From a virus, in UHGV virus genome UHGV-0227205: DNA of 10,294 nucleotides; one strand, given 5' to 3'. Below the pieces are notes generated by a model that had not been told where the DNA came from, did not search any database, and saw only the letters and a list, made by a program, of their open reading frames with translations. The position numbers were made by a program, and so were the translations under genes. Positions within the stretch are counted from its first letter, which is position 1. Every line of letters begins with the position of its first letter. Below, piece by piece: positions 1 through 10,294 of the stretch.

Positions 1-2
1 CT

Positions 3-218
3 GCCACCCCGTGTCAGCAGGGAGACTGCGTCATCCACCGGGCGCGTCAGGGACCAGGCTTTATTGCTCTGCTTGGTGCTGGCCCGGCATTCCAGGTCAT
101 AAAAGACAGTCTGACACTGGGGCTGAATGCGCTGACGTTAACTGATATCACTAAAAATGCCGCGTACGGCGTCGATATCGGCAGCCTGGTGCTGGAAATC
201 AATAATCCCGCAGCATAA
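3..218 (+). CDS. Hypothetical protein, C-terminal fragment (5' end outside window)
   Basis: Frame 3 is open from the first base of the window to TAA at 216-218 (71 codons, no in-frame stop; the other two plus frames hit stops at about 97 and 143). Same strand as the R-like gene and 23 bp upstream of it; an AGGAG-like RBS for R (227-231) follows its stop. No family recognised from the fragment (ends ...SLVLEINNPAA). In P2 synteny this position is the lysis-gene end of the operon, but the fragment does not look like an Rz/LysB coiled coil. Confidence 0.3.
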   Translation, partial: ATPCQQGDCVIHRARQGPGFIALLGAGPAFQVIKDSLTLGLNALTLTDITKNAAYGVDIGSLVLEINNPAA

Positions 219-241
219 GGAAGAGCAGGAGAGCAAAACAG

Positions 242-709
242 ATGCTTAAGACAAACAGTCTGCGAGAGTCCATGCTTCATGGGTGTCGGTGGTGCCAGGC
301 TAATCCCGAGAAATTCACCATTTTCGTGGAGAGCGGCAACATTGAAACGACCGGAGAAGCGCCCTCGTTTGTTTACCGCTATCAGATGGTGATGTTTGTC
401 ATGGATTACGCCGGAGAGCTGGACGACCTCACGCTGCCGCTGCTGGCGTGGTTATCCGAAAATCAGCCACAGTTGTTGCTCAATCCGGAGCGTAATCAGG
501 ACATCAAATTTTCTGCCGTTATCAATGACGATGACAGCGCCGATCTCCTGTTTACGCTCCCCCTGCGGGAACGCGTTCGCATCACGCGCAACAGTCAGGG
601 CACACCGCAGGCAGAACACCTGCCGGAGCCAAAACCCCGTCTGCCTTCTTCCGAAGGCGACTGGTCGCATGTATTCCAGGATGTGACGTGGGGTGAAAGC
701 GATGGATAA
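242..709 (+). CDS. R: P2 gpR-like tail completion protein
   Basis: 155-aa ORF with ATG at 242 preceded by an AGGAG-like RBS. N-terminus MLKTNSLRE... and length resemble P2 gpR as I recall it. Sits immediately upstream of S-V-W-J-I-H in P2 gene order. Stop overlaps the next start (ATGGATAA). Confidence 0.7.
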   Translation: MLKTNSLRESMLHGCRWCQANPEKFTIFVESGNIETTGEAPSFVYRYQMVMFVMDYAGELDDLTLPLLAWLSENQPQLLLNPERNQDIKFSAVINDDDSADLLFTLPLRERVRITRNSQGTPQAEHLPEPKPRLPSSEGDWSHVFQDVTWGESDG

Positions 710-1337
710 GGCATTCACCCGCGTGGATGAAACCTTTGAGGCTATCCGCGACAGCCTGAATCAGCAGGCCATCAATAACATCGCCAGAAAGCTGGCACAG
801 GATTTACGTCGCGCCCAGCAGGCACGTATCCGGTCACAAAAAGCGCCGGACGGGACCGAATGGACACCACGCAGACGCCGCGTAACCCGGATACAGGAGC
901 GCATTCGCTTTATCTGGAATAACGAAGCACGCACGCTGAAAAACTGGCATCACGACACAGGGAAATACGGGCGAACCATTACCGGGTGGGATGAGGATAA
1001 AAACAATATCCGCACGTTTTACCGGGATGACATCGACCGTTTTCTGGAAATACGCACCCGGCGCATCAACCAGGACAGCACAAAGCGCGTCCCCATGTTC
1101 GTAAAACTGCGCACCGCCCGCTACCTGAAAGCCCGTGCAGATGCCTCCGGTGTGACGGTGGGTTACAGCGGCGTGGCCGCACGTATTGCACGCGTTCATC
1201 AGTTCGGTGAGCGCGATCAGGTTGCGCCGGGCATTTTCACCGATTACCCGGTACGTGAGCTGTTGGGTATCAGCCAGGCAGATGAGCGCCTGATTTATAA
1301 CACGGTGCTGGGCCGGATTGCGGAGGCTGTACGGTGA
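702..1337 (+). CDS. S: P2 gpS-like tail completion / virion morphogenesis protein
   Basis: ORF in P2-syntenic position between R and V. ATG at 702 overlaps the R stop; an alternative GTG start at 693 is possible. Basic, Arg-rich protein. Family assignment is by synteny and size rather than recalled motifs. Confidence 0.65.
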   Translation: MDKAFTRVDETFEAIRDSLNQQAINNIARKLAQDLRRAQQARIRSQKAPDGTEWTPRRRRVTRIQERIRFIWNNEARTLKNWHHDTGKYGRTITGWDEDKNNIRTFYRDDIDRFLEIRTRRINQDSTKRVPMFVKLRTARYLKARADASGVTVGYSGVAARIARVHQFGERDQVAPGIFTDYPVRELLGISQADERLIYNTVLGRIAEAVR

Positions 1338-1915
1338 GCGCAGAACTCATGCGACTGCTGAGCAACATCATCCGCACCGGGATCATCTCTGAAGTTGATG
1401 AGAAGTCCTGGCGCGTGCGCGTTCGCAGCGGCGAACTGGAAACAGGCTGGTTGCGCTGGAACACCACGCGCGCGGGAGCCTTCAATGTGTGGCTGCCGCC
1501 ATCACCAGGCGAACAGGTGGTAATTGCCTGCATTGGCGGCAACCCGGAAACCGCCATGATAATTGGCAGCCTGTGGAGTGATGCCAGTCCGGCCCCCGGC
1601 AAAAGCCTGAAAGAAATCGTGGTCAGCGCGCCGGATGGCGCGGTGTTCCGCTACGACGCAGACGCTGGCGCACTGAGCGCCAGCGGCATGAAAACAGCCA
1701 CCCTGCAGGCATCCGTCAGCGTGACACTGGATACGCCCGTCGTGGAATGCACAAACCTTCTGAGAACGGCGACGCTTGACGTCACAAAAGAGGGAAAGAT
1801 GAGCGGCAATATCACGCACAGCGGCGGCAATTTCACCTCAAACGGCATTACCGTGCATACGCATAAGCACGGTGGCGTTAAAGGTGGCAGCGATTCGACA
1901 GGAGGCCCGCAGTGA
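1334..1915 (+). CDS. V: Baseplate assembly protein V (spike/hub), P2 gpV-like
   Basis: 193-aa ORF; GTG start at 1334 overlaps the S stop (GTGA), with an alternative ATG at 1349. Motifs ...IRTGIISEVDE..., GWLRW, PSPGEQVVI, C-terminal GITVHTHKHGG and Gly-rich tail match P2 gpV as recalled. Syntenic with W-J-I. Confidence 0.9.
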   Translation: MSAELMRLLSNIIRTGIISEVDEKSWRVRVRSGELETGWLRWNTTRAGAFNVWLPPSPGEQVVIACIGGNPETAMIIGSLWSDASPAPGKSLKEIVVSAPDGAVFRYDADAGALSASGMKTATLQASVSVTLDTPVVECTNLLRTATLDVTKEGKMSGNITHSGGNFTSNGITVHTHKHGGVKGGSDSTGGPQ

Positions 1916-2262
1916 CAACCCGCTACACAGGAATGAACCCGGACGGGACGGGAAACCTGAACGATATGGAGCACCTGAAACAGTCAGTCAGGGACATCCT
2001 GATCACCCCGCTGGCAAGCCGGGTTATGCGACGGGAATATGGCAGCCTTGTGCCTGATTTGATTGACGAACCCATGAATAACACCACGCGTCTGCAATGC
2101 ATGAGTGCTGCCGTGATTGCGCTGACACGATGGGAACCCCGCATTGCCCTGGACGCCATCGACGTTGTCTGGAAGGCAGGAGGCCGCGCCGGGGTGACGC
2201 TGTCGGGCACTGTCATGCAGACCATGCAGAATGTTGAATTAACCATCACGCTGAGAGAGTAA
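1912..2262 (+). CDS. W: Baseplate wedge protein W (GPW/gp25 family), P2 gpW-like
   Basis: 116-aa ORF; GTG start overlaps the V stop (GTGA). MTTRYTGMN..., VMRREYGSL and WEPRI motifs match P2 gpW as recalled. Confidence 0.9.
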   Translation: MTTRYTGMNPDGTGNLNDMEHLKQSVRDILITPLASRVMRREYGSLVPDLIDEPMNNTTRLQCMSAAVIALTRWEPRIALDAIDVVWKAGGRAGVTLSGTVMQTMQNVELTITLRE

Positions 2263-2265
2263 ATC

Positions 2266-3162
2266 ATGCCTGCTGTTGATCTTTCCCAGTTACCGGAACC
2301 CGCCATCATCGCGGAGCCTGATTTTGAGGCAATTCTGGCTGACACAAAGGCCATGATGATTGCGTCCTATCCTGCCGAACAGCGTGAAGCCGTCTCCGCC
2401 GCGCTGGAGCTGGAATCAGAACCCCTGAACGTTATCGCTCAAACCATGTCGTTTCGTGAAATGCTGTTACGCCAGCGGGTTAACGAGGGCGCACGCGCCT
2501 GCATGTTAAGCCACGGTTCAGGGACAAACCTGGACAACCTCGCGGGCAATATGAACACAAAGCGCCTGGTTATCACTCCGGCAACGGATACCACCGACGC
2601 GGTGATGGAGAGCGACACCTCGCTGAGACTGCGGGCGCAGCGGGCGTATGACGGCCTGAGTGTTGCTGGCCCGTCAGGTGCATACGAGTATTTTGCACGC
2701 AGCGCCAGCGGTCTGGTGCGTGATGCGCGGGCCATCAGCCCGTCTCCGGCCTGTGTGACGGTTTCCATTCTGTCCACTGAAGGCGACGGCACAGCAACGG
2801 AGGCGTTGCTTAATACCGTTCGCGCCGTTCTGAATGCAGAGGATACCCGCCCGGTGGCCGACCGACTGACCGTACAGAGCGCCAGCATCGTGACATGGCG
2901 GCTGAATGCAAAACTGTACTTTTACCCCGGCCCGGAATCCGAACCTATTCTGGCTGCGGCTGAATCGTCGTTCAGGAAGTGGCTGGCTGAGCAGGGGCTT
3001 ATTGGTCAGGACGTGGCGTTGTCAGCCATTGCTGCCGCACTTCATGTGCACGGCGTGCAACGCGTGGAGATAATCGAACCCACACAGAATATGGCCATCA
3101 GCGACATACAGGCGGCGCGCTGTGAGTCATTCACCATCAGCGAAGGTGGGCGTAATGAGTAA
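2266..3162 (+). CDS. J: Baseplate assembly protein J (gp6-like), P2 gpJ-like
   Basis: 298-aa ORF starting 3 bp after the W stop. MPAVDLSQLPEP..., LESEPL, RQRVNE, SPSPACVT, RPVADRLTVQSA, YFYPGPESEPI and LHVHGVQRVEI match P2 gpJ as recalled. Stop overlaps the I start (ATGAGTAA). Confidence 0.9.
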   Translation: MPAVDLSQLPEPAIIAEPDFEAILADTKAMMIASYPAEQREAVSAALELESEPLNVIAQTMSFREMLLRQRVNEGARACMLSHGSGTNLDNLAGNMNTKRLVITPATDTTDAVMESDTSLRLRAQRAYDGLSVAGPSGAYEYFARSASGLVRDARAISPSPACVTVSILSTEGDGTATEALLNTVRAVLNAEDTRPVADRLTVQSASIVTWRLNAKLYFYPGPESEPILAAAESSFRKWLAEQGLIGQDVALSAIAAALHVHGVQRVEIIEPTQNMAISDIQAARCESFTISEGGRNE

Positions 3163-3685
3163 TTCACTGTTACCGCCATCAGCCAGCAATTTCATGCGTT
3201 GCGCCGAAGCTGTCGGAGCGCGCATTACAGACATCCCGGTAGACCTCAACACGCTGTGGTCACCGGACACCTGCCCGGTGCATCTGCTGCCTTATCTCGC
3301 CTGGGCATTTTCCGTTGACCGCTGGGATCGCAACTGGCCGGAAGAGACAAAGCGACAGGTGATTCGTGATGCATGGCTGATACACCGACACAAAGGGACC
3401 ATCAGCGCACTGCGCCGGGCCATTGAGCCGCTGGGATACCTCATTCGCGTGTCTGAGTGGTGGGAGTTCGGCGGAGAACCGGGAACATTTACCGTTGAAG
3501 TCGGCACGCTGGACAGTGGCGTGACGGAGGAAATGTATCTGGAAATGGAGCGGTTGATTGCTGATGCCCGCCCGGTCAGCCGCCACATGACAGGGCTGAA
3601 TATCATTCAGGAGATTCAGGGAGATATTTTCGCGGCGGCAGCAACTTACGACGGCGAAGTCATTACCATTTATCCGGACGATTAA
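3155..3685 (+). CDS. I: Baseplate/tail protein I, P2 gpI-like
   Basis: ATG at 3155 overlapping the J stop; the longer track ORF from 3122 is probably an upstream extension. Motifs LWSPDTCPVHLLPYLAWAFSVDRWD, HRHKGTISALRRAIEPLGYLI, EMERLIADARP and YDGEVITIYP match P2 gpI as recalled. Confidence 0.9.
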   Translation: MSNSLLPPSASNFMRCAEAVGARITDIPVDLNTLWSPDTCPVHLLPYLAWAFSVDRWDRNWPEETKRQVIRDAWLIHRHKGTISALRRAIEPLGYLIRVSEWWEFGGEPGTFTVEVGTLDSGVTEEMYLEMERLIADARPVSRHMTGLNIIQEIQGDIFAAAATYDGEVITIYPDD

Positions 3686-3687
3686 GC

Positions 3688-5031
3688 ATGAGTACCACAA
3701 CACGTAAATTTAAAACCGTTATCACCGATACGGGTGCCAAAAAATTAGCTCAGGCAGCCGCGCCAGATGGTAAGCCTGTCCGCCTGACTCATATGGCCGT
3801 GGGCGACGGTGGCGGCACGTTGCCCACACCAGACAGTAAGCAGACCCGTCTGGTGCATGAGGTGTGGCGACATACTGTTAATCGCGTCATCCTGGACGCA
3901 ACACATCAGAACCGCATTATTGCGGAGCTGGTTATTCCTCCTGAAACGGGCGGATTCTGGATCCGGGAAATTGGTGTATTTGATGAGCACGGCGATTTAA
4001 TCGCGGTGGGCAATACTGCCGAAAGTTACAAGCCAGCCGTTGCCGAAGGGTCCGGTCGTGCACAAACATTTCGCACCATTCTGACCGTATCCAGCACTGC
4101 CACCGTGGTGCTTACCGTGGATAACACCATGGTGATGGCCACAGTGGATTACGTGGATGACAAACTGAAAGAGCATGAACAGTCACGACGTCACCCGGAC
4201 GCCTCGCTGACCGCAAAAGGCTTTGTTCAACTCAGTAGCGCCACTAACAGCGTGTCTGAAACGCAGGCTGCAACGCCGAAAGCAGTAAAGGCCGCGTATG
4301 ACCTTGCTAACGGTAAATATACTGCGCAGGATGCCAGCACGACGCGAAAAGGCCTTGTCCAGCTCAGTAGCGCCACCAACAGCACGTCTGAAACGCAGGC
4401 TGCAACGCCGAAAGCAGTAAAGGCCGCGTATGACCTTGCTAACGCAAAATATACCGCTCAGGACGCCACGACGGCACAAAAAGGGATAGTCCAGCTCAGT
4501 AGTGCCACCAACAGCACGTCTGAAACACTGGCCGCGACATCGAAAGCTGTTAAGGCGGTAATGGATGAAACGAACAAGAAAGCGCCCTTAAATAGTCCTG
4601 CACTGACCGGAACGCCAACAACACCAACTGCGCGACAGGGAACGAATAATACCCAAATCGCAAGCACGGCTTATGTTATGGCTGCGATCGCTGCCCTCGT
4701 GGACTCGTCGCCTGACGCACTGAATACGCTGAACGAGCTGGCTGCGGCGTTGGGCAACGACCCGAATTTTGCGACCACCATGACTAGCGCGCTTGCGGGT
4801 AAGCAACCGAAAGATGCCACCCTGACGGCGCTGGCCGGGCTTGCTACTGCGGCAGACAGGTTTCCGTATTTTACGGGGAATGATGTTGCCAGTCTGGCAA
4901 CCCTGACAAAAGTTGGGCGGGATATTCTTGCGAAATCGACCGTTGCCGCCGTTATCGAATACCTCGGTTTACAGGAAACGGTAAACAAGGCTGGTAACGC
5001 CGTTCAGCGTTCCGGCGCATTACCGCCTTAA
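3688..5031 (+). CDS. H: Tail fibre protein H, P2 gpH-like, apparently 3'-truncated (constant N-terminal part only; possible pseudogene)
   Basis: 447-aa ORF starting 3 bp after the I stop. N-terminus (..TVITDTGAKKLAQA..MAVGDGGG..EVWRH..IIAELVIPPE..GGFW.RE.G..D..G.LIAV.N.AESYKP..AEGSGR..) matches the P2 H attachment domain. It then has three tandem repeats and a ...GIVQLSSATNSTSETLAAT.KAVKAVMDETNKKAPL...ALNTLNELAAALGNDP...VIEYLGLQETVNKAGNAVQ segment shared with lambda Stf. Recognisable sequence stops at 5007, then 7 codons (RSGALPP) and TAA. P2 H is about 670 aa as I recall, so the distal receptor-binding part appears to be missing, and no G gene follows. Confidence 0.85.
   Translation: MSTTTRKFKTVITDTGAKKLAQAAAPDGKPVRLTHMAVGDGGGTLPTPDSKQTRLVHEVWRHTVNRVILDATHQNRIIAELVIPPETGGFWIREIGVFDEHGDLIAVGNTAESYKPAVAEGSGRAQTFRTILTVSSTATVVLTVDNTMVMATVDYVDDKLKEHEQSRRHPDASLTAKGFVQLSSATNSVSETQAATPKAVKAAYDLANGKYTAQDASTTRKGLVQLSSATNSTSETQAATPKAVKAAYDLANAKYTAQDATTAQKGIVQLSSATNSTSETLAATSKAVKAVMDETNKKAPLNSPALTGTPTTPTARQGTNNTQIASTAYVMAAIAALVDSSPDALNTLNELAAALGNDPNFATTMTSALAGKQPKDATLTALAGLATAADRFPYFTGNDVASLATLTKVGRDILAKSTVAAVIEYLGLQETVNKAGNAVQRSGALPP
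4198..4563 (+). repeat. Tandem direct repeat, 132-bp (44-codon) unit, 2 full copies plus 1 partial, in frame within H
   Basis: Copy 1 at 4198-4329 (DASLTAKGFVQLSSATNSVSETQAATPKAVKAAYDLANGKYTAQ), copy 2 at 4330-4461 (DASTTRKGLVQLSSATNSTSETQAATPKAVKAAYDLANAKYTAQ), copy 3 at 4462-4563 (DATTAQKGIVQLSSATNSTSETLAATSKAVKAVM, then diverges into DETNKKAP). Copies are near-identical at nucleotide level by eye. Confidence 0.9.
4480..4563 (+). repeat. Inverted repeat, left arm (H repeat core KGIVQLSSATNSTSETLAATSKAVKAVM)
   Basis: 84 nt at 4480-4563 align codon for codon with the reverse complement of 5018-5101 (stf KGIVQLSSATNSTSESLAATPKAVKAVM). I count 70/84 identical, with the last 15 nt (GTTAAGGCGGTAATG) identical. 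Confidence 0.8.
4952..4977. other. Candidate Din-family (Gin/Cin/Pin/Hin-type) invertase crossover site, orphan
   Basis: TTATCGAATACCTCGGTTTACAGGAA at 4952-4977. As I recall, Mu gixL is TTCCTGTAAACCGAGGTTTTGGATAA; its reverse complement TTATCCAAAACCTCGGTTTACAGGAA differs from the window at 2 of 26 positions. The site is 12-bp half-sites around a central TC dinucleotide and lies inside the H codons VIEYLGLQE. No second site in inverted orientation and no invertase gene were found in the window by eye. Confidence 0.6.
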
Positions 5032-6496
5032 CCGCTTTTGGCGTTGCCGCCAGTGACTCGGAAGTGCTGTTGGTCGCACTGCTGAGCTGTACTATCCCCT
5101 TTTTCGTCGTGCTCGCATCCTCAAGCGCCACGGCGGATGCAATATCCTCTGCCCGTTTTGCCGCTGTCTCGGCGCGCGTTGCCGCGGATTCCGCCGTACT
5201 TTTGCTCTGAGCTGCCGCCGTCGCACTGCCAGCTGCCTCTGTCGCCTTCGTGGATGCCGTCGTGGCGCTGCCCTTTGCTGCTGACGCCTGTCTGGTCGCC
5301 TCATCTTTTGAAGCAGACGCAGATGATGCCGATGACGCCGCTGAACTGGCTGACGATGCGGCTGCCGCCTTAGAGGAAGCAGCATTGTCTGCTGAAGTCT
5401 TTGCATTTGTTTCAGAGGTTTTTGCTGCAGAAGCAGACCTCGCTGCTGCAGTGGCTTGCTCAGTGGCTTTGCCAGCCTTCGTTGTGGCTGTTGAAGCGGA
5501 TGATGCGGCGCTTTCTGCCGATTTTCCGGCGGCGGTGGCACTGGCTGAGGCCTGCCCGGCACTTGTTGACGCGGCACTGGCAGATAATGCAGCCGCTGTT
5601 TTTGAACCTGCCGCAGCTGAGGCGCTCTGTCCCGCTGCTGTTTCAGAAGACTTAGCGTTCGTCTCGGACGTTTTTGCCGCCTTCGCGGAATTTCCTGCCG
5701 CCGTTGCCGAGGAAGCTGCACTACTGGCACTTGATGATGCATTCGTTTCTGAAGATTTCGCTGCCTCTTTTGAGGCCGCCGCACCCCGTGCCGAGGTGGC
5801 AGCTTCTGACGCCTTCGTGGTCGCTGTGGATGCAGAAGTGGCTGCCGATTTTTGTGATGCTGCGGCATTCGTTTCTGACGTTTTCGCGGCACTGGCGCTG
5901 GTAGCTGCCGCGCTTTTTGATGACTCTGCAGCAGCAGCACTTTTTGCTGCTTCACGGGCCTTTGTCGATGCCGTTCCTGCGCTGGAAGACGCTGACTGAG
6001 CCGACGACGCGGCCTGTCCGGCTGACGTGCTGGCGGCACGTGATGAGGCTGCAGCATCGGTTGCATGAGTTGCCGCCTCGCTGGCTGATGCACTGGCATC
6101 GCTGGCTGATTTTTTCGCGGCTGCCGTATTCTGTGCAACCGCGGAGGCGTTACGTGACACCTCTTCTACCATCTGCTCAAAGCGGCGCAGTGCCTCCGGT
6201 CGTACATCATCCTCCGTCATGGCACCGAGAAAATCATTCAGCGTACCTGGTCTGGAACCTTCATAGACGGTAATGGTCCCGGCATGTGAAGGCGGAAAAC
6301 CTTCAACCAGCAGGGTGACGCTGTACTGACCATGCTCAACATCCATGCTGTAACGTCCGGCTTCATCCGGATTTTCAGAGGCCACCGTGTTCACCACCAC
6401 CGTGCTGCTGGTTCGTCTGGCCTTCAGCACAATGGTGCAGTTCTGTACTGGTTTTCCTGTGCCATCTTTAAGCACGCCAGAAATTTTTACTGTCAT
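4952..6496 (-). CDS. stf: Side tail fibre protein, lambda Stf-like, apparently 3'-truncated (N-terminal and shaft part only; possible pseudogene)
   Basis: 514-aa minus-strand ORF with ATG at 6494-6496 and a GGTGGA RBS. N-terminus MTVKISGVLKDGTGKPVQNCTIVLKARR...YSMDVEHGQYSV...GFPPSHAGTITVYE...GTLNDFL is almost identical to lambda Stf as recalled. It continues into the Ala/Ser-rich shaft with KTSETNA repeats and then ...AVALEDASTTKKGIVQLSSATNSTSESLAATPKAVKAVM. The last 21 codons (RRNAERRYQPCLPFPVNRGIR) are the antisense of the H 3' end, not Stf sequence. Lambda Stf is about 770 aa as I recall; the C-terminal receptor-binding part and tfa are absent. Confidence 0.85.
   Translation of the reverse strand: MTVKISGVLKDGTGKPVQNCTIVLKARRTSSTVVVNTVASENPDEAGRYSMDVEHGQYSVTLLVEGFPPSHAGTITVYEGSRPGTLNDFLGAMTEDDVRPEALRRFEQMVEEVSRNASAVAQNTAAAKKSASDASASASEAATHATDAAASSRAASTSAGQAASSAQSASSSAGTASTKAREAAKSAAAAESSKSAAATSASAAKTSETNAAASQKSAATSASTATTKASEAATSARGAAASKEAAKSSETNASSSASSAASSATAAGNSAKAAKTSETNAKSSETAAGQSASAAAGSKTAAALSASAASTSAGQASASATAAGKSAESAASSASTATTKAGKATEQATAAARSASAAKTSETNAKTSADNAASSKAAAASSASSAASSASSASASKDEATRQASAAKGSATTASTKATEAAGSATAAAQSKSTAESAATRAETAAKRAEDIASAVALEDASTTKKGIVQLSSATNSTSESLAATPKAVKAVMRRNAERRYQPCLPFPVNRGIR
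5018..5101 (-). repeat. Inverted repeat, right arm (stf KGIVQLSSATNSTSESLAATPKAVKAVM)
   Basis: Reverse complement of 5018-5101 matches 4480-4563 at about 83% identity. The arm begins exactly where recognisable stf coding sequence ends (ATG codon at 5018-5020 on the minus strand). Confidence 0.8.
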
Positions 6497-6510
6497 ACTT
6501 TTCCACCAAT

Positions 6511-6544
6511 AAAAAAAGCCCGCAGCAGTGACGCCACGGGCTTC
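6511..6544 (-). terminator. Putative intrinsic terminator downstream of lom
   Basis: On the minus-strand transcript: stem AGCCCG (revcomp of 6537-6542), 14-nt loop, stem CGGGCT (revcomp of 6517-6522), then a run of 7 T (revcomp of the A-run 6511-6517). Stem is short with a large loop, so strength is uncertain. The stf RBS follows directly. Confidence 0.5.
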
Positions 6545-6647
6545 AGGACAGTGTAACTTTACGTTTCCTCAAACGCAGTTCACCCCATAAGGTGGATGAA
6601 CCTGCGTATCATAACAATATTTACAGAAGATAAATCGGCGTCTGTTG

Positions 6648-7247
6648 TCAGAAACGGTATCCGATACCAACAATAAATGCATCCGTTCGCCAGTCGCCAC
6701 TACCGGAACCTTCATAAGCAAGGTCAATGGTCACGGATTCGGTCGGGTTAAACTGCACGCCAGCCCCCCACGCCAGAGACGTGTTGCTGTGGCGACCGTC
6801 ATCACTTCCGGTCAGCACATCGTGCTTTTTCCCCTTGTTGTCAGTTACGCGAAGATAATCCCCGGAGAAAGTCGACACACGGCTGTAAGCCACACCCGCC
6901 ATCGCATACGCGCTGAACCATTCATTCACGCGCACAGACGGCCCCGCCATTACGCTGAACCAGCGGTTACGAACGGAATCTTCATGCCAGCGGGTATCGC
7001 TGTAACGGGTCAGCTGGCGATTCTTGTCTCCTGCATAGCTGAACGACGTCTCCAGCCCCAGTGTGTCCGTAAACTCATAACGGTATTTCACGTTAATCCC
7101 GTTCAGATCATCACTGCCGGGAACGTTCGTCGAGGCATGAAGATAGCCCGCGCTCAGCGTGGACTGATGTTCAGACGCCCATGCAGGCGCACCGGATACG
7201 GCCAGACAGATGGCTGCGGACAAAATGGCGGCATAAAGTTTACGCAT
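6648..7247 (-). CDS. lom: Outer membrane beta-barrel protein Lom (Ail/Lom/PagC/Rck/OmpX family)
   Basis: 199-aa ORF with ATG at 7245-7247 and a GAGAGG RBS. Signal peptide MRKLYAAILSAAICLAVSGAPAWA with AWA cleavage motif. C-terminus ...LAYEGSGSGDWRTDAFIVGIGYRF closely matches lambda Lom as recalled and ends in an aromatic residue typical of OM beta-barrels. Sits in the lambda J-lom-stf position. Confidence 0.9.
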   Translation of the reverse strand: MRKLYAAILSAAICLAVSGAPAWASEHQSTLSAGYLHASTNVPGSDDLNGINVKYRYEFTDTLGLETSFSYAGDKNRQLTRYSDTRWHEDSVRNRWFSVMAGPSVRVNEWFSAYAMAGVAYSRVSTFSGDYLRVTDNKGKKHDVLTGSDDGRHSNTSLAWGAGVQFNPTESVTIDLAYEGSGSGDWRTDAFIVGIGYRF

Positions 7248-7268
7248 AATTACCTCTCGCTTTTCTGC

Positions 7269-7296
7269 AATAAAAAAGGCGTCATTCCTGACGCCC
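7269..7296 (-). terminator. Putative intrinsic terminator between J and lom
   Basis: On the minus-strand transcript: GGCGTCA-GGAA-TGACGCC hairpin (7-bp GC-rich stem, 4-nt loop; plus coordinates 7277-7294) followed by TTTTTTATT (revcomp of 7268-7276). Lies 22 bp after the J stop and before the lom RBS. Confidence 0.7.
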
Positions 7297-7317
7297 TTTA
7301 TTGGGGTTATAAATATT

Positions 7318-10294
7318 TCAACGAATACTGATGCCGGAAGCGGCTTTTTTGGTCACAATCACCGTACAGTCGGTGATATTGCCTGCCCCCTGATTGCCTT
7401 TCTGGAAAATCTTAAACTCCAGAGTGACGCTTCCCCTGCCACTCGGCATATCAATAACTGCACTGTAACTACCGGGAATGGCCCCTTTAGTTTCTCTGGA
7501 TGCGATTAATACGCCGTTTTTGCGAACTTCAAAACCATAACCCGTGTATCGCGTGCCTCCTGGGTTATTTCCGCTCCCCGGATCGTCATACGCTATACCG
7601 TTAAAAATAATGGGCGGAATAATAATCTGGCGGTCAAAGTTATGATCATCGCTGATGGTGACTGTAACCGTACCGTTTGGTGTTTCCGTGTTACCCCACG
7701 TACCGACTTTTTTCGGGAAGGCTTTTGATACAGCTTTAACGAAATCTCCTCTGACCTGGGTCGCCTCCAGCATGCCCTTAATCGTACAGTTCTGGTTAAT
7801 CGTGACATTGTTGAGCGTTCCTGAGTTCGCATTCACACTGCCACTGATATCCACATTTTTCGCCGTCAGTCTCCCGTCTGATGTCAGGGAAAATGCCGGA
7901 GGATTACCGCCGCTGGTAATGGTGGGGGCCGTCAGGCGTTTCAGGAACACTTCATTCATGAATATCTGATCGCCCTGACCAACAAACATCGGCTTTGTGT
8001 TGCCATTCGCAGGATTAATCATCGCAATCCTGTCTGCCGCCAGCAGCACCTGACTCTGCATTCCTGCTGGCGTATTCTCAATACCGGCACCGATACCCGC
8101 AATATAAAGGCGTCCGTCCTGCATCTGCTGCAGTTTCACGGCCCACATGCTGTTCAGGTTATTATTTGTATCAACCTGAACTTTCTGTATCTGCTGGATT
8201 GCCGCACTCTGATTTTCCAGTTTTTTATTGACGGTCTGCGTGATTTCATTGCTGACATTCGTAATGGACGTCCTGATTTCAGCCAGGTCCGGCGCAAGCT
8301 GACCGTTATCAATCTGCGTCCACAGCTCCTGGGCCAGATGTGTTTTCCCGATTTCTCCTTTGAAAAAATCCAGGTAACCTTCCGCATCATCGCTCGCCCG
8401 ACCGACAGCCTCCACGAATGCCGATTTGCCAACAGTATTCACACTGCGGATATAAAAATAATAATCATGGCCCGGTTTGATATTGATACTGGCAGCTATC
8501 CAGTACAGCGCCGAGCCAAGATAGCGGGCTGCGGTTTCAACCTGCCTGATATCCGCAATCCGCTTTTCCGAGAACCAGAACTCAAACTGTACCGTCGGGT
8601 CATAAACGGCAAGATGTGGCGTTGCGGTTATCTGAAAATAGCCCGGCGTCAGCTCAATCCGCGACGGTGCTGCCGGTGCGGCAATCCGGAAGGTGGTGGT
8701 GGCAGGTTCACCCTGCTGGCCATAGCTGTTTATCGCCCGCACCGTCAGGGTGTATTCCCCGAGCGGCAGGCCGCTGAAACGGTGCTCCGTGTCTGCGGTG
8801 ATGGCGGTGGTCACCAGTCTGGCATCCGTTCCCTTACCACTGGTCAGGCGCAGACTGAAGCGCACACCCTTCACCACCCGCGGCGTGTCCCATTTCGCCT
8901 GCGCCAGATACTGGCCGTCAGCTGCGCTCACCTCCACCGTCAGGTGCTGCACTGCCGGTGGGATGACGCTGTTCAGGGAACCTGACTGCGGCTCAAAGCG
9001 GGCACCGTTATCCACGATGGCTTCTTTTTCCGGTACGTGCTGCACCGCCGTGATGGCAAAGGTGCCGTCCGTGTTTTCCCGGATGGAGACACAGCGGAAC
9101 AGGCGACGGCGCAGTGACGGCAGGGAGAGTCCCCACACCCCGTATGTCTCCACACCATCAGGCAGGGTACTGACCTGTATCCGGTCCGGCGCGGGGTGTG
9201 CGGTGATGTCCACACTCACCGGCTTACCGCTGCCGTTAATCAGGTTCACCGCCGATGTACCTGTCTCCGGCAGGGTAACCTCACGGTCCAGCGTCAGGGT
9301 GCGGGTGGCAGCATCAATGGACAGGACACGTCCGCCGGTCAGGGTCCCGGCATAGTCATTATCACAGATTTCAATAATGTCACCGGGTGTGTGCCGCAGC
9401 CCCTGAGACCCGAGCGTGAAATCCACCGTCTGCGTTTCCAGCAGTTCGGTCTTTATCACCCACAGTCCGGCACGGTGGGCCTGACCGCGGCTGGTACAGC
9501 CGAACGCGTCCATCTTCAGCAGGTTGCGTCCGTAGCGCAGTATGGCTTCCGGGTCTTCCACCAGTTCCGTGGAGGTCTGCCAGCCGTTCTGCGGGTCGGT
9601 GTAATTCACCTCCACCGCCGTGTGCCGGTCCTTCAGGGCACTGAAGCTGTAGCGGAATCCCACGCCGTTATCATCCACCACCACATCGCTGTTGGTGTAC
9701 GGCCACACCACATCCGACGGGCGGTCCTGAACGAACGTCAGCGTCTGACCGTTCCATACCGGCATACAGCGCATCGCAGAGCAGAAATCACTGAGAACGT
9801 CCCACGCCTTACGCTGTTGTGCCAGGTACGCATTAAAGGTCATCCGCGGCTCGGTCCCCCCGAAACCATCCGGGACCGTCTGGTCGCAGTACTGCCCGAT
9901 GGCATACAGCGCCCACTTGTCCACATCCGCCGCCCCCAGACGTTTTCCCATGCCGTAGCGCGGGTGAGTCAGCATGTCCCACAGACACCAGGCCGGGTTG
10001 TTGCTGTATGCCGGTTTCAGACTGCCGTCCCAGATACCACTATACGTGCGTTTTTCCGGGTCATAGTTTGACGGCACCTGGATGATGCGACCGCGGATAT
10101 GGTAGTTCACCGTCATCTGCTGGCCGCCGAACTGCTCCGCATCCACCTGCAGCCCCACAATGGCCGTGTTCGGGTAGCACTGTTTCACATCGATGATTTC
10201 GGTGTATGACGACCACAGCGTCTTATTCTGCAGCTGGTCCGTGGTGCTGTCCGCCGTCTCCCTGACCATCCGGATGTTAAAGGGCCGGGGAGGC
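7318..10294 (-). CDS. J: Host specificity / tail tip protein J, lambda J-like (central tail fibre); 5' end outside window
   Basis: Minus-strand frame open from the window end (translation ...[44 protein letters not shown]...) to the stop at 7318-7320, at least 992 codons. Long stretches ([191 protein letters not shown]) match lambda J as recalled. The ATG at 10267-10269 is internal, not the start; lambda J is about 1130 aa. Confidence 0.92.

What the first reader, a model, noticed from the sequence alone, without database searches (positions are those of the whole stretch)
4952..5031. Tail-to-tail breakpoint joining a 3'-truncated P2-type H to a 3'-truncated lambda-type stf
H (plus) is recognisable through ...LQETVNKAGNAVQ (ending 5007), then reads 7 unrelated codons and stops at 5029-5031. 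stf (minus) is recognisable from 6496 down to the M of KAVKAVM (5018-5020); its remaining 21 codons are the antisense of the H 3' end. Only 10 bp (5008-5017, CGTTCCGGCG) separate the last recognisable H codon from the last recognisable stf codon, and the two ORFs overlap antisense over 4952-5031. Both fibres therefore lack a distal receptor-binding domain, and neither a P2 G nor a lambda tfa assembly gene is present. This looks like a deletion or other rearrangement that removed both fibre tips and everything between two convergent prophage tail modules, or else a chimeric assembly join.
Basis: partly seen in the sequence, partly recalled or inferred. Interest (0 to 1): 0.7.

Follow-up and report, generated by a model that had tools for sequence, protein, structure and literature searches.

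The report
Probable assembly chimera joining two fibre genes
Two prophage tail-fibre genes do meet tail-to-tail here, but the join is a blunt, one-off inverted junction between sequences that run straight on in every comparable genome, so it is most likely an assembly or library error and not biology.

Summary
The two ORFs and their antisense overlap exist as described, but the join is sharper than reported. It is blunt at 5017|5018, with no spare bases; "RSG" after NAVQ is genuine fibre sequence.

- **Left arm:** window 78-5017 matches natural P2-like prophage contigs exactly (4940 nt, 0 mismatches). Their fibre gene continues to 767 aa, followed by chaperone genes and an invertase.
- **Right arm:** window 5018-8015 matches a metagenome scaffold exactly (2998 nt). 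That scaffold reads straight through the breakpoint.
- **Geometry:** in homologous fibre coordinates the two joined points lie only 454 bp apart, in opposite orientation, with 0 bp of microhomology.
- **Second junction:** a similar private junction sits at 77|78 (373 bp apart, 1 bp overlap), 77 nt from the window start.
- **Uniqueness:** neither junction occurs in 5426 complete E. coli genomes, or in the phage, plasmid, GTDB, metagenome or IMG/VR collections searched.

The best explanation is a chimeric assembly or library artefact (about 0.68). A real rearrangement remains possible (about 0.25).

The genuine biology nearby is already known. A Mu gix-type invertase crossover site (4952-4977, 24/26 identical to Mu gix) marks the constant/variable boundary of the fibre gene.

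The parts
1..77 (-). Inverted fragment of the P2-like prophage cargo gene (DUF6645/SASA esterase). It is the reverse complement of sequence that naturally lies 296-373 nt upstream of window position 78.
   Evidence: Window 1-78 equals the reverse complement of L002 5628-5705, L015 2317-2394 and L014/L016 6018-6095, all at 100%. Sequence read.
77..78 (.). Junction J1: a private inverted join with 1 bp of overlap. The joined points are 373 bp apart in the natural prophage.
   Evidence: No E. coli genome, metagenome contig or IMG/VR contig crosses it.
78..3685 (+). Natural P2-like tail module: the 3' end of the DUF6645 gene, then gpR (242-709), gpS (693-1337), gpV (1334-1915), gpW (1912-2262), gpJ (2266-3162) and gpI (3155-3685).
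   Evidence: Pfam hits. 100.000% identity over window 78-5017 to L015, L016, L018, L019 and L021.
3688..5017 (+). Codons 1-443 (plus one base) of a natural 767-aa P2 H-type tail fibre allele. It carries the N-terminal collar-fibre domain, three Phage_fiber_2 repeats and the conserved shaft region, and it reaches 40 nt into the variable tip.
   Evidence: P0092-P0094 (767 aa) are 100% identical over all 443 residues. Their loci continue with ...RSGDKMTGEL.
4952..4977 (+). Gin/Cin/Pin-type 26-bp crossover site TTATCGAATACC-TC-GGTTTACAGGAA at the constant/variable boundary of the fibre gene. It is the only such site in the window.
   Evidence: 24/26 identical to both Mu gix sites at the annotated G-segment boundaries. 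Single copy in the window, with 0 expected by chance. Half-sites are exchanged at the central TC between ST131 strains 4/4 and AR_0086.
5017..5018 (.). Junction J2, the reported breakpoint. It is a blunt tail-to-tail join with 0 unassigned bases and 0 bp of microhomology. In homologous coordinates it joins L003 6517 to the complement of L003 6063, which are 454 bp apart.
   Evidence: All database hits stop at 5017 or 5018.
5018..6496 (-). Codons 1-493 of a lambda Stf-type side tail fibre, ending at ...KAVKAVM. It comprises the N-terminal domain, an Ala/Ser-rich shaft and one fibre repeat.
   Evidence: PF08400. 100.000% identical to L011 and 99.9% to L003, both of which continue with GETNKKAPL....
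4460..5121 (.). Imperfect inverted repeat created by the join. The arms are 4460-4563 (the third fibre repeat of H) and 5018-5121 (the Stf fibre repeat): 104 nt, 80% complementary, with a 454-nt loop.
6648..7247 (-). lom (Ail/Lom outer-membrane protein), intact.
   Evidence: PF06316 over its full length. Exact protein found on four public metagenome contigs.
7318..10294 (-). Lambda J-type tail tip attachment protein. Its C-terminal 991 codons are present; the window end cuts the gene.

Best explanation
The tail-to-tail join is most likely not a structure of the living genome. It looks like a chimeric contig built from two intact prophage loci of one E. coli sample: a P2-like prophage whose fibre gene is the natural 767-aa allele, and a lambdoid prophage with a normal J-lom-stf-tfa arm.

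These two fibre genes share a conserved shaft region of about 450 bp plus the start of the variable tip. The junction connects the end of the stf-specific part (after KAVKAVM) to a point 454 bp further along that shared region, on the opposite strand, with no overlap.

An inverted, blunt, few-hundred-bp offset is what a mis-oriented read pair or short fragment would produce. One example is read 1 concatenated directly to an un-reversed read 2, which gives an offset of insert size minus read length. Another is a short repeat unitig placed backwards. After such a junction, an assembler can continue through the shared repeat into the P2-type gene. A second junction of the same geometry at 77|78, 77 nt from the window start, fits the same process.

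Shown: the anatomy, the identity of each arm, the uniqueness of both junctions and their geometry. Inferred: that the cause is technical, and which technical step caused it.
For: (1) Both arms exactly match natural sequences that continue past the breakpoint. Window 78-5017 matches L015/L016/L018/L019/L021 over 4940 nt with 0 mismatches; H continues there to 767 aa, followed by chaperone genes and an invertase gene. Window 5018-8015 matches L011 over 2998 nt with 0 mismatches, and L011 reads through KAVKAVM|GETNKK.
(2) The joined points are 454 bp apart in homologous coordinates, inverted, with 0 bp of microhomology. My rough estimate is about 1e-4 that a random illegitimate join between two prophages in a 5-Mb genome would land that close.
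(3) J1 at 77|78 has the same geometry: inverted, 373 bp apart, 1 bp overlap.
(4) J1 lies 77 nt from the window start. This is also where other draft assemblies of this prophage break: their contig starts correspond to L002 5635, 5942, 5962 and 6062. About 78 nt is close to the overlap length de Bruijn assemblers use (k of 77-79, from my own knowledge). This suggests the window is a whole short-read contig.
(5) Neither junction occurs in 5426 complete E. coli genomes, 50,697 phage records or 72,556 plasmids. Exact junction words searched in GTDB species representatives (J2 only), JGI metagenome contigs and IMG/VR gave no real match. The 21-residue chimeric tail peptide did not appear among the 21 candidates retrieved from the 5.8-billion-protein index, and neither chimeric ORF product is on record.
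(6) Both junctions lie in sequence that is multi-copy in E. coli genomes. The junction-spanning 1-kb query had up to 11 places per genome, and the J1 region up to 18. Assembly errors concentrate in such sequence.
(7) An inverted duplication of this kind would be a large palindrome. By established knowledge these are unstable in sbcCD+ E. coli.
Against: - No reads, assembly graph or provenance are available, so the artefact is inferred and not demonstrated.
- The breakpoints do not coincide exactly with repeat or branch boundaries that I could identify. The stf-specific arm ends 2 nt before the H/stf diagnostic SNP, and H-767 and ST131 stf stay identical beyond 5017.
- The 78-nt terminal piece is one base off the value expected for k=77.
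- A mainstream assembler should normally prefer the well-covered true path over a junction supported by few reads.
- Rare real illegitimate joins without microhomology do occur in E. coli.
Confidence: 0.68

Rival explanations
1. Real small in-place inversions. A 454-bp segment of stf (L003 6064-6517) and a 373-bp segment of the DUF6645 gene (L002 5628-6000) were cut out and re-ligated backwards in vivo, for example by two double-strand breaks with end-joining or by gyrase-mediated illegitimate recombination. The inverted stf segment then led into the P2-type H gene through the shared exact repeat of about 450 bp, either by real homologous exchange or by assembler collapse.
For: Both junctions have exactly the form of one end of an in-place inversion. 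They are blunt or near-blunt, as expected for homology-independent joining. H-767 and stf are identical across the segment, so a switch between them is possible.
Against: This needs two independent, very rare events in one strain, plus a third event or an assembly collapse to link stf to H. The reciprocal junctions are not in the window. Neither junction appears in any other genome, although the flanks are 100% identical to widespread prophages. J1 lying 77 nt from the window start would be a coincidence of about 1.5%.
Confidence: 0.15
2. One reading: a genuine large deletion, inversion or duplication joint fused a P2-like prophage cut at H codon 443 to a lambdoid prophage cut at stf codon 493. 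This removed both fibre tips, both chaperone genes and everything in between, and left two defective prophages tail-to-tail.
For: The sequence as given shows exactly this, and both ORFs are truncated. Prophage tail-fibre regions are recombination hot spots. A 767-aa H allele with a B region like that of stf shows that natural exchange between these genes occurs.
Against: In complete ST131 genomes with near-identical copies, the two genes are about 525 kb apart and divergently oriented. Homologous or invertase-mediated exchange between them would give in-frame hybrids, not a tail-to-tail join. The breakpoints fall 454 bp apart in homologous coordinates, which is unexplained under a random join. 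It does not explain J1. No other genome has the joint.
Confidence: 0.08
3. Aberrant site-specific recombination by the Gin-like invertase that normally flips the fibre-tip segment, acting on a secondary site.
For: A functional-type gix site lies 40 nt upstream of the junction. Related prophages encode an invertase 85% identical to Mu Gin and do flip at this site.
Against: The junction is 52 bp from the crossover dinucleotide (4964-4965), not at it. The four breakpoint sequences show no resemblance to the 26-bp site and no shared 2-bp core. Genuine invertase products in related genomes exchange exactly at the central TC.
Confidence: 0.02
4. Chimera from multiple displacement amplification (phi29) of the sample, a specific sub-case of the artefact reading.
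For: More than 85% of MDA chimeras are inverted joins with an intervening deletion, mostly less than 10 kb apart (PMC1855051). That matches the geometry here.
Against: In that study 93.5% of inverted junctions less than 10 kb apart showed at least 2 nt of complementarity at the join. Here the overlaps are 0 and 1 nt.
Confidence: 0.05

Closest known systems
Phage Mu G segment / P1 C segment / e14 P segment: Gin-Cin-Pin invertible tail-fibre host-range switches
   Same: The window carries the left 26-bp crossover site (24/26 identical to Mu gix) at the constant/variable boundary of the fibre gene. The residues after it (TVNKAGNAVQRSG) parallel those of Mu S (TVNRARNAVQKNG). Exact-match natural relatives carry the full system: two convergent tip-plus-chaperone cassettes, an inverted second site and a Resolvase-family invertase.
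   Different: In the window the system is cut 40 nt after the site. There is no second site, no alternative cassettes and no invertase. The breakpoint is not at the crossover dinucleotide.
P2 gpH / gpG tail fibre and chaperone
   Same: PF12571 N-terminal domain, Phage_fiber_2 repeats, and the gene order R-S-V-W-J-I-H.
   Different: The receptor-binding distal part (codons 444-767 of the natural allele) and the downstream chaperone gene are absent.
Lambda Stf / Tfa side tail fibre
   Same: PF08400 N-terminal domain and the J-lom-stf gene order.
   Different: It stops at codon 493, whereas relatives are 898-1132 aa, and there is no tfa.
Inverted chimeric junctions from sequencing or assembly (concatenated un-reversed read pairs, mis-oriented short contigs, MDA chimeras)
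   Same: Inverted orientation, an offset of a few hundred bp, no conserved sequence at the breakpoints, location in multi-copy sequence and next to a probable contig end, and uniqueness to this sequence.
   Different: No reads are available to prove it. The MDA sub-type usually shows at least 2 nt of microhomology, which is absent here.

Membership tests
Gin/Cin/Pin-type invertible tail-fibre segment | 26-bp imperfectly palindromic crossover site at the constant/variable boundary of the fibre gene | tested here: met
   4952-4977 is 24/26 identical to both Mu gix sites at the annotated G-segment boundaries. The site is unique in the window, with 0 expected by chance.
Gin/Cin/Pin-type invertible tail-fibre segment | Second site in inverted orientation bounding the segment | tested here: not met
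   The window holds only one site at up to 3 mismatches. Relatives have the partner site.
Gin/Cin/Pin-type invertible tail-fibre segment | Adjacent serine invertase gene (Resolvase plus HTH_7) | tested here: not met
   No such ORF in the window; all large ORFs are assigned to other families. It is present in the exact-match relatives L014 and L015, and the ST131 homologue is 85% identical to Mu Gin.
Gin/Cin/Pin-type invertible tail-fibre segment | Two convergent alternative tip-plus-chaperone cassettes | tested here: not met
   Absent from the window. Present in L014-L018.
Gin/Cin/Pin-type invertible tail-fibre segment | Inversion actually occurs at the central dinucleotide | tested here: met
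   Met for related loci only. ST131 strains 4/4 and AR_0086 differ by inversion of the 3.1-kb segment, with half-sites exchanged at the central TC. It cannot occur in the window as it stands.
P2 gpH-type tail fibre | N-terminal collar-fibre domain and fibre repeats downstream of baseplate genes J and I | tested here: met
   PF12571 at 1.2e-53 and PF03406 three times; gene order confirmed.
P2 gpH-type tail fibre | C-terminal receptor-binding part followed by a gpG-type chaperone gene | tested here: not met
   The ORF ends 4 codons after the junction. The natural allele is 767 aa and is followed by a Caudo_TAP gene.
Lambda Stf-type side tail fibre | Prophage tail fibre N-terminal domain downstream of J and lom | tested here: met
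   PF08400 at 1.8e-70; Lom and J confirmed.
Lambda Stf-type side tail fibre | Distal receptor-binding part and tfa chaperone gene | tested here: not met
   Genuine sequence stops at codon 493. Relatives are 898-1132 aa and have tfa.
Assembly or library chimera | Each side matches a natural sequence that continues collinearly past the breakpoint | tested here: met
Assembly or library chimera | Junction not reproduced in independent genomes or assemblies | tested here: met
Assembly or library chimera | Junction lacks read support, or is supported only by discordant or duplicate reads | not testable with these tools
   No reads, depth data or assembly graph are available.

The most novel reading that the evidence does not exclude
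The junctions are physical. A strain exists in which homology-independent breakage and rejoining flipped or fused short pieces of prophage tail-fibre DNA next to an active invertase site. This left a P2-like and a lambdoid prophage fused tail-to-tail, with both fibres lacking their receptor-binding tips. It would be an example of blunt illegitimate inverted joining in natural E. coli prophages, possibly linked to DNA breakage around the invertible segment.
Probability: 0.22. Interest if true: 0.3.

Novelty: not a real feature. Interest (0 to 1): 0.08.

Why it matters
If the join is an artefact, its main value is as a warning. Truncated fibre genes, 'missing' chaperones and apparent prophage fusions at this spot should not be read as biology, and the source assembly probably contains more inverted blunt junctions. 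If it is real, it would only document a private, disabling rearrangement of two common prophages. The genuinely functional element here, the gix-type crossover site of an invertible fibre-tip switch, is textbook biology. It is present in full in the intact relatives.

Tried and rejected
(1) I first thought the H gene itself was an H/stf assembly hybrid. Relative to the ST131 P2-like prophage, it switches to stf-type SNPs inside a 107-bp identical stretch. I rejected this because natural 767-aa H alleles and five independent contigs match window 78-5017 with 0 mismatches.

(2) Invertase-mediated origin of the junction: rejected. The breakpoint is 52 bp from the crossover dinucleotide, and the breakpoint sequences do not resemble the site.

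(3) MDA chimera: the geometry fits, but the missing microhomology makes it a poor fit.

(4) Priming or template-switch fold-back: no complementarity exists between either 3' end and the sequence next to the other breakpoint (read).

(5) A possible extra chimeric joint at the ISEc12 insertion point of ST131 lom (window 6872): rejected. Identity to ST131 continues about 130 bp beyond that point, and isolate AF39 and four metagenome contigs carry the same uninterrupted lom.

(6) A suspected stop in J near the window end was an artefact of the ORF listing; the frame is open to the window end.

(7) The only exact hit to a 22-mer across J2, in Acetobacterium fimetarium, does not extend beyond the 22 bases. 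About 0.07 such hits are expected by chance in 596 Gb, so it is a chance match.

(8) Looking for the source contig through the exact products of the two chimeric ORFs found nothing on record.
Full report
**What is in the sequence**

The window holds two tail modules that face each other. On the plus strand lies a P2-type set: gpR, gpS, gpV, gpW, gpJ, gpI and a fibre gene H (3688-5031). On the minus strand lies a lambda-type set: J (cut by the window end), lom (6648-7247) and stf (6496-4952). Pfam confirms every assignment. The window contains no fibre chaperone gene.

**Where the join is**

Comparison with natural fibres moves the breakpoint. In the lambdoid stf of ST131 strain 4/4 (L003), the protein reads ...KAVKAVM|GETNKKAPL... 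and later ...NAVQRSG|DKMTGEL....
- The window's plus strand follows this sequence through RSG, up to base 5017.
- The minus strand follows stf down to the M of KAVKAVM, at base 5018.

No 10-bp spacer exists. The junction is blunt at 5017|5018, with no unassigned base and no microhomology. H therefore carries 443 genuine codons plus 4 foreign ones. Stf carries 493 genuine codons plus 21 antisense ones. An 80-nt query centred on the junction gives hundreds of hits in E. coli genomes, phages and plasmids. Every hit stops at 5017 or starts at 5018, apart from one degraded stf copy (E19) that runs on by chance to 5024, as checked.

**Both arms are natural sequence**

I first suspected that H was itself an H/stf chimera. 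Against the ST131 P2-like prophage (L002) it is identical up to about 4565. It then passes a 107-bp stretch shared with stf, and from 4673 it carries the stf-type SNPs. That idea was wrong.
- A protein search found natural 767-aa fibres that are 100% identical over all 443 residues.
- Five independent contigs carrying them are identical to window 78-5017 over 4940 nt with no mismatch. In these contigs H continues past RSG and is followed by a chaperone gene. Those that extend further (L014, L015) then carry an inverted chaperone gene, an inverted alternative tip, a Resolvase-family invertase and the P2 tail genes.
- On the other side, a metagenome scaffold (L011) is identical to window 5018-8015 over 2998 nt and reads straight through the breakpoint into GETNKK....

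Each arm is therefore an exact copy of a natural, intact locus, cut at an arbitrary internal position.

**Geometry of the join**

The 767-aa H allele and stf are identical over the roughly 450 bp that follow KAVKAVM and into the start of the variable tip. In these shared coordinates, the junction links L003 position 6063 to the complement of position 6517. The two points are 454 bp apart and on opposite strands. In the window this appears as a 104-nt, 80% inverted repeat with a 454-nt loop. I estimate roughly a 1 in 10,000 chance that a random illegitimate join between two prophages of a 5-Mb genome would place its two ends that close in homologous coordinates. A process that acts locally on one DNA fragment explains it directly.

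**A second junction of the same kind**

Window 1-78 is the reverse complement of sequence that naturally lies 296-373 nt upstream of window position 78 in the same P2-like prophage, with 1 bp of overlap. The window therefore contains two inverted, essentially blunt junctions, with offsets of 373 and 454 bp. This second junction is also absent from all 5426 E. coli genomes and from the metagenome and IMG/VR collections.
- It lies 77 nt from the window start.
- Other draft assemblies of this prophage also break in this region. Their contig starts correspond to L002 5635, 5942, 5962 and 6062.
- The sequence there is multi-copy in E. coli, with up to 18 places per genome.

These points suggest that the window is a whole short-read contig and that the terminal 77-78 nt are a graph artefact of about one k-mer in length. 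The k-mer link rests on my knowledge of assemblers. It is one base off for k=77, so it is only a hint.

**Uniqueness**

Neither junction appears in the 5426 complete E. coli genomes or in the phage and plasmid collections. Junction words searched in GTDB representatives (J2 only), JGI metagenome contigs and IMG/VR gave no real match. A single 22-mer hit in Acetobacterium does not extend and is a chance match. The products of the two chimeric ORFs are not on record. The 21-residue antisense tail of the stf ORF did not appear among the 21 candidates retrieved from the 5.8-billion-protein index. Yet the flanks are exact copies of prophages seen in many assemblies.

**Most likely cause**

The combination of inverted orientation, blunt ends, an offset of a few hundred bp, two occurrences in 10 kb, location in repeated sequence, a position next to a probable contig end, and uniqueness is best explained by a technical chimera.
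- **Favoured mechanism:** a read pair or short fragment used in the wrong orientation. Read 1 concatenated to an un-reversed read 2 gives exactly a blunt inverted join with an offset of insert size minus read length. Here that implies inserts of about 450-600 bp. After the join, the assembler can continue through the shared exact repeat of about 450 bp into the P2-type gene.
- **MDA chimeras:** these have the right geometry, being more than 85% inverted with an intervening deletion. However, 93.5% of such local junctions show at least 2 nt of complementarity (PMC1855051), and here the overlaps are 0 and 1 nt.
- **Fold-back priming:** excluded for the same reason.

I put the artefact reading at about 0.68. 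It is inferred and not shown, because no reads are available.

**Real alternatives**
- **Two small in-place inversions:** two genuine events plus a switch through the shared repeat (about 0.15).
- **Large tail-to-tail fusion:** a genuine fusion of the two prophages (about 0.08). In complete ST131 genomes with near-identical copies, the two genes lie about 525 kb apart and divergent. Homologous or site-specific exchange between them would give in-frame hybrids, not a tail-to-tail join.
- **Invertase error:** unlikely (about 0.02), because the breakpoint is 52 bp from the crossover dinucleotide and the breakpoint sequences do not resemble the site.

**The real biology next to the junction**

The first 26 bases of the reported interval (4952-4977, TTATCGAATACC-TC-GGTTTACAGGAA) are a Gin/Cin/Pin-type crossover site.
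- The site matches both gix sites of phage Mu at 24 of 26 positions, at the annotated G-segment boundaries.
- The invertase of the related ST131 P2-like prophage is 85% identical to Mu Gin.
- The site is active in relatives. ST131 strains 4/4 and AR_0086 differ by inversion of the 3.1-kb fibre-tip segment of the lambdoid prophage, with the half-sites exchanged exactly at the central TC. L011 carries the other tip after the same site.

This is the known host-range switch of Mu, P1, e14 and many prophages. Recent work shows that such invertases act in trans on other cryptic prophages (PMC12529663). In the window, only the left site survives.

**Verdict**

Nothing here is new biology, and interest is low.

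Noticed in passing
window 1-78: A second private inverted junction. The first 77-78 nt are the reverse complement of natural sequence 296-373 nt upstream in the same P2-like prophage (DUF6645/SASA gene), with 1 bp of overlap. It is absent from all collections searched.
   Followed up: yes
window 4952-4977: A 26-bp Gin/Cin/Pin-type crossover site, 24/26 identical to Mu gix, lies exactly at the start of the reported interval. It marks the natural constant/variable boundary of the fibre gene.
   Followed up: yes
L003 6446-9564 versus L008 4969-8087: The lambdoid prophage of ST131 has its 3.1-kb fibre-tip segment in opposite orientations in strains 4/4 and AR_0086, with half-sites exchanged at the central TC. 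Its own recombinase gene is only a 180-nt fragment. The inversion is therefore presumably catalysed in trans, for example by the Gin homologue of the P2-like prophage (compare PinQ acting on e14, PMC12529663).
   Followed up: partly
window 7000-7950: The J C-terminal (receptor-binding) and lom N-terminal cassette is only 50-87% identical to ST131 strain 4/4, while the sequence on both sides of it is about 100% identical. This looks like a natural mosaic replacement. ST131 also carries ISEc12 inside lom at the point equivalent to window 6872, and the window does not.
   Followed up: partly
window 4300-4563: H contains tandem 132-nt units encoding three Phage_fiber_2 repeats (KG[FLI]VQLSSATNS...KAVKA...). 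The stf shaft ends with one copy of the same repeat, which creates the 104-nt inverted repeat around the junction.
   Followed up: yes
window 78-218; L002 4264-6141: The P2-like prophage carries a 625-aa cargo gene (DUF1737, SASA sialate O-acetylesterase and DUF6645 domains) between the lysis genes and gpR. Its 3' end is multi-copy in many E. coli genomes, with up to 18 places per genome.
   Followed up: no
L001 (E. coli E19) 4500-5400: The stf/tip region of this 'complete' genome is riddled with frameshifts and a premature stop just after NAVQ. This probably reflects consensus errors in that assembly. It explains a misleading 7-nt extension of one BLAST hit past the junction.
   Followed up: partly
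L002 versus L015 fibre genes: The same P2-like prophage occurs with two H alleles, of 740 aa and 767 aa. They differ by about 20 SNPs in the 300 bp before the crossover site and by the tip cassette after it. This shows natural exchange of the shaft-end and tip module with lambdoid stf genes.
   Followed up: partly
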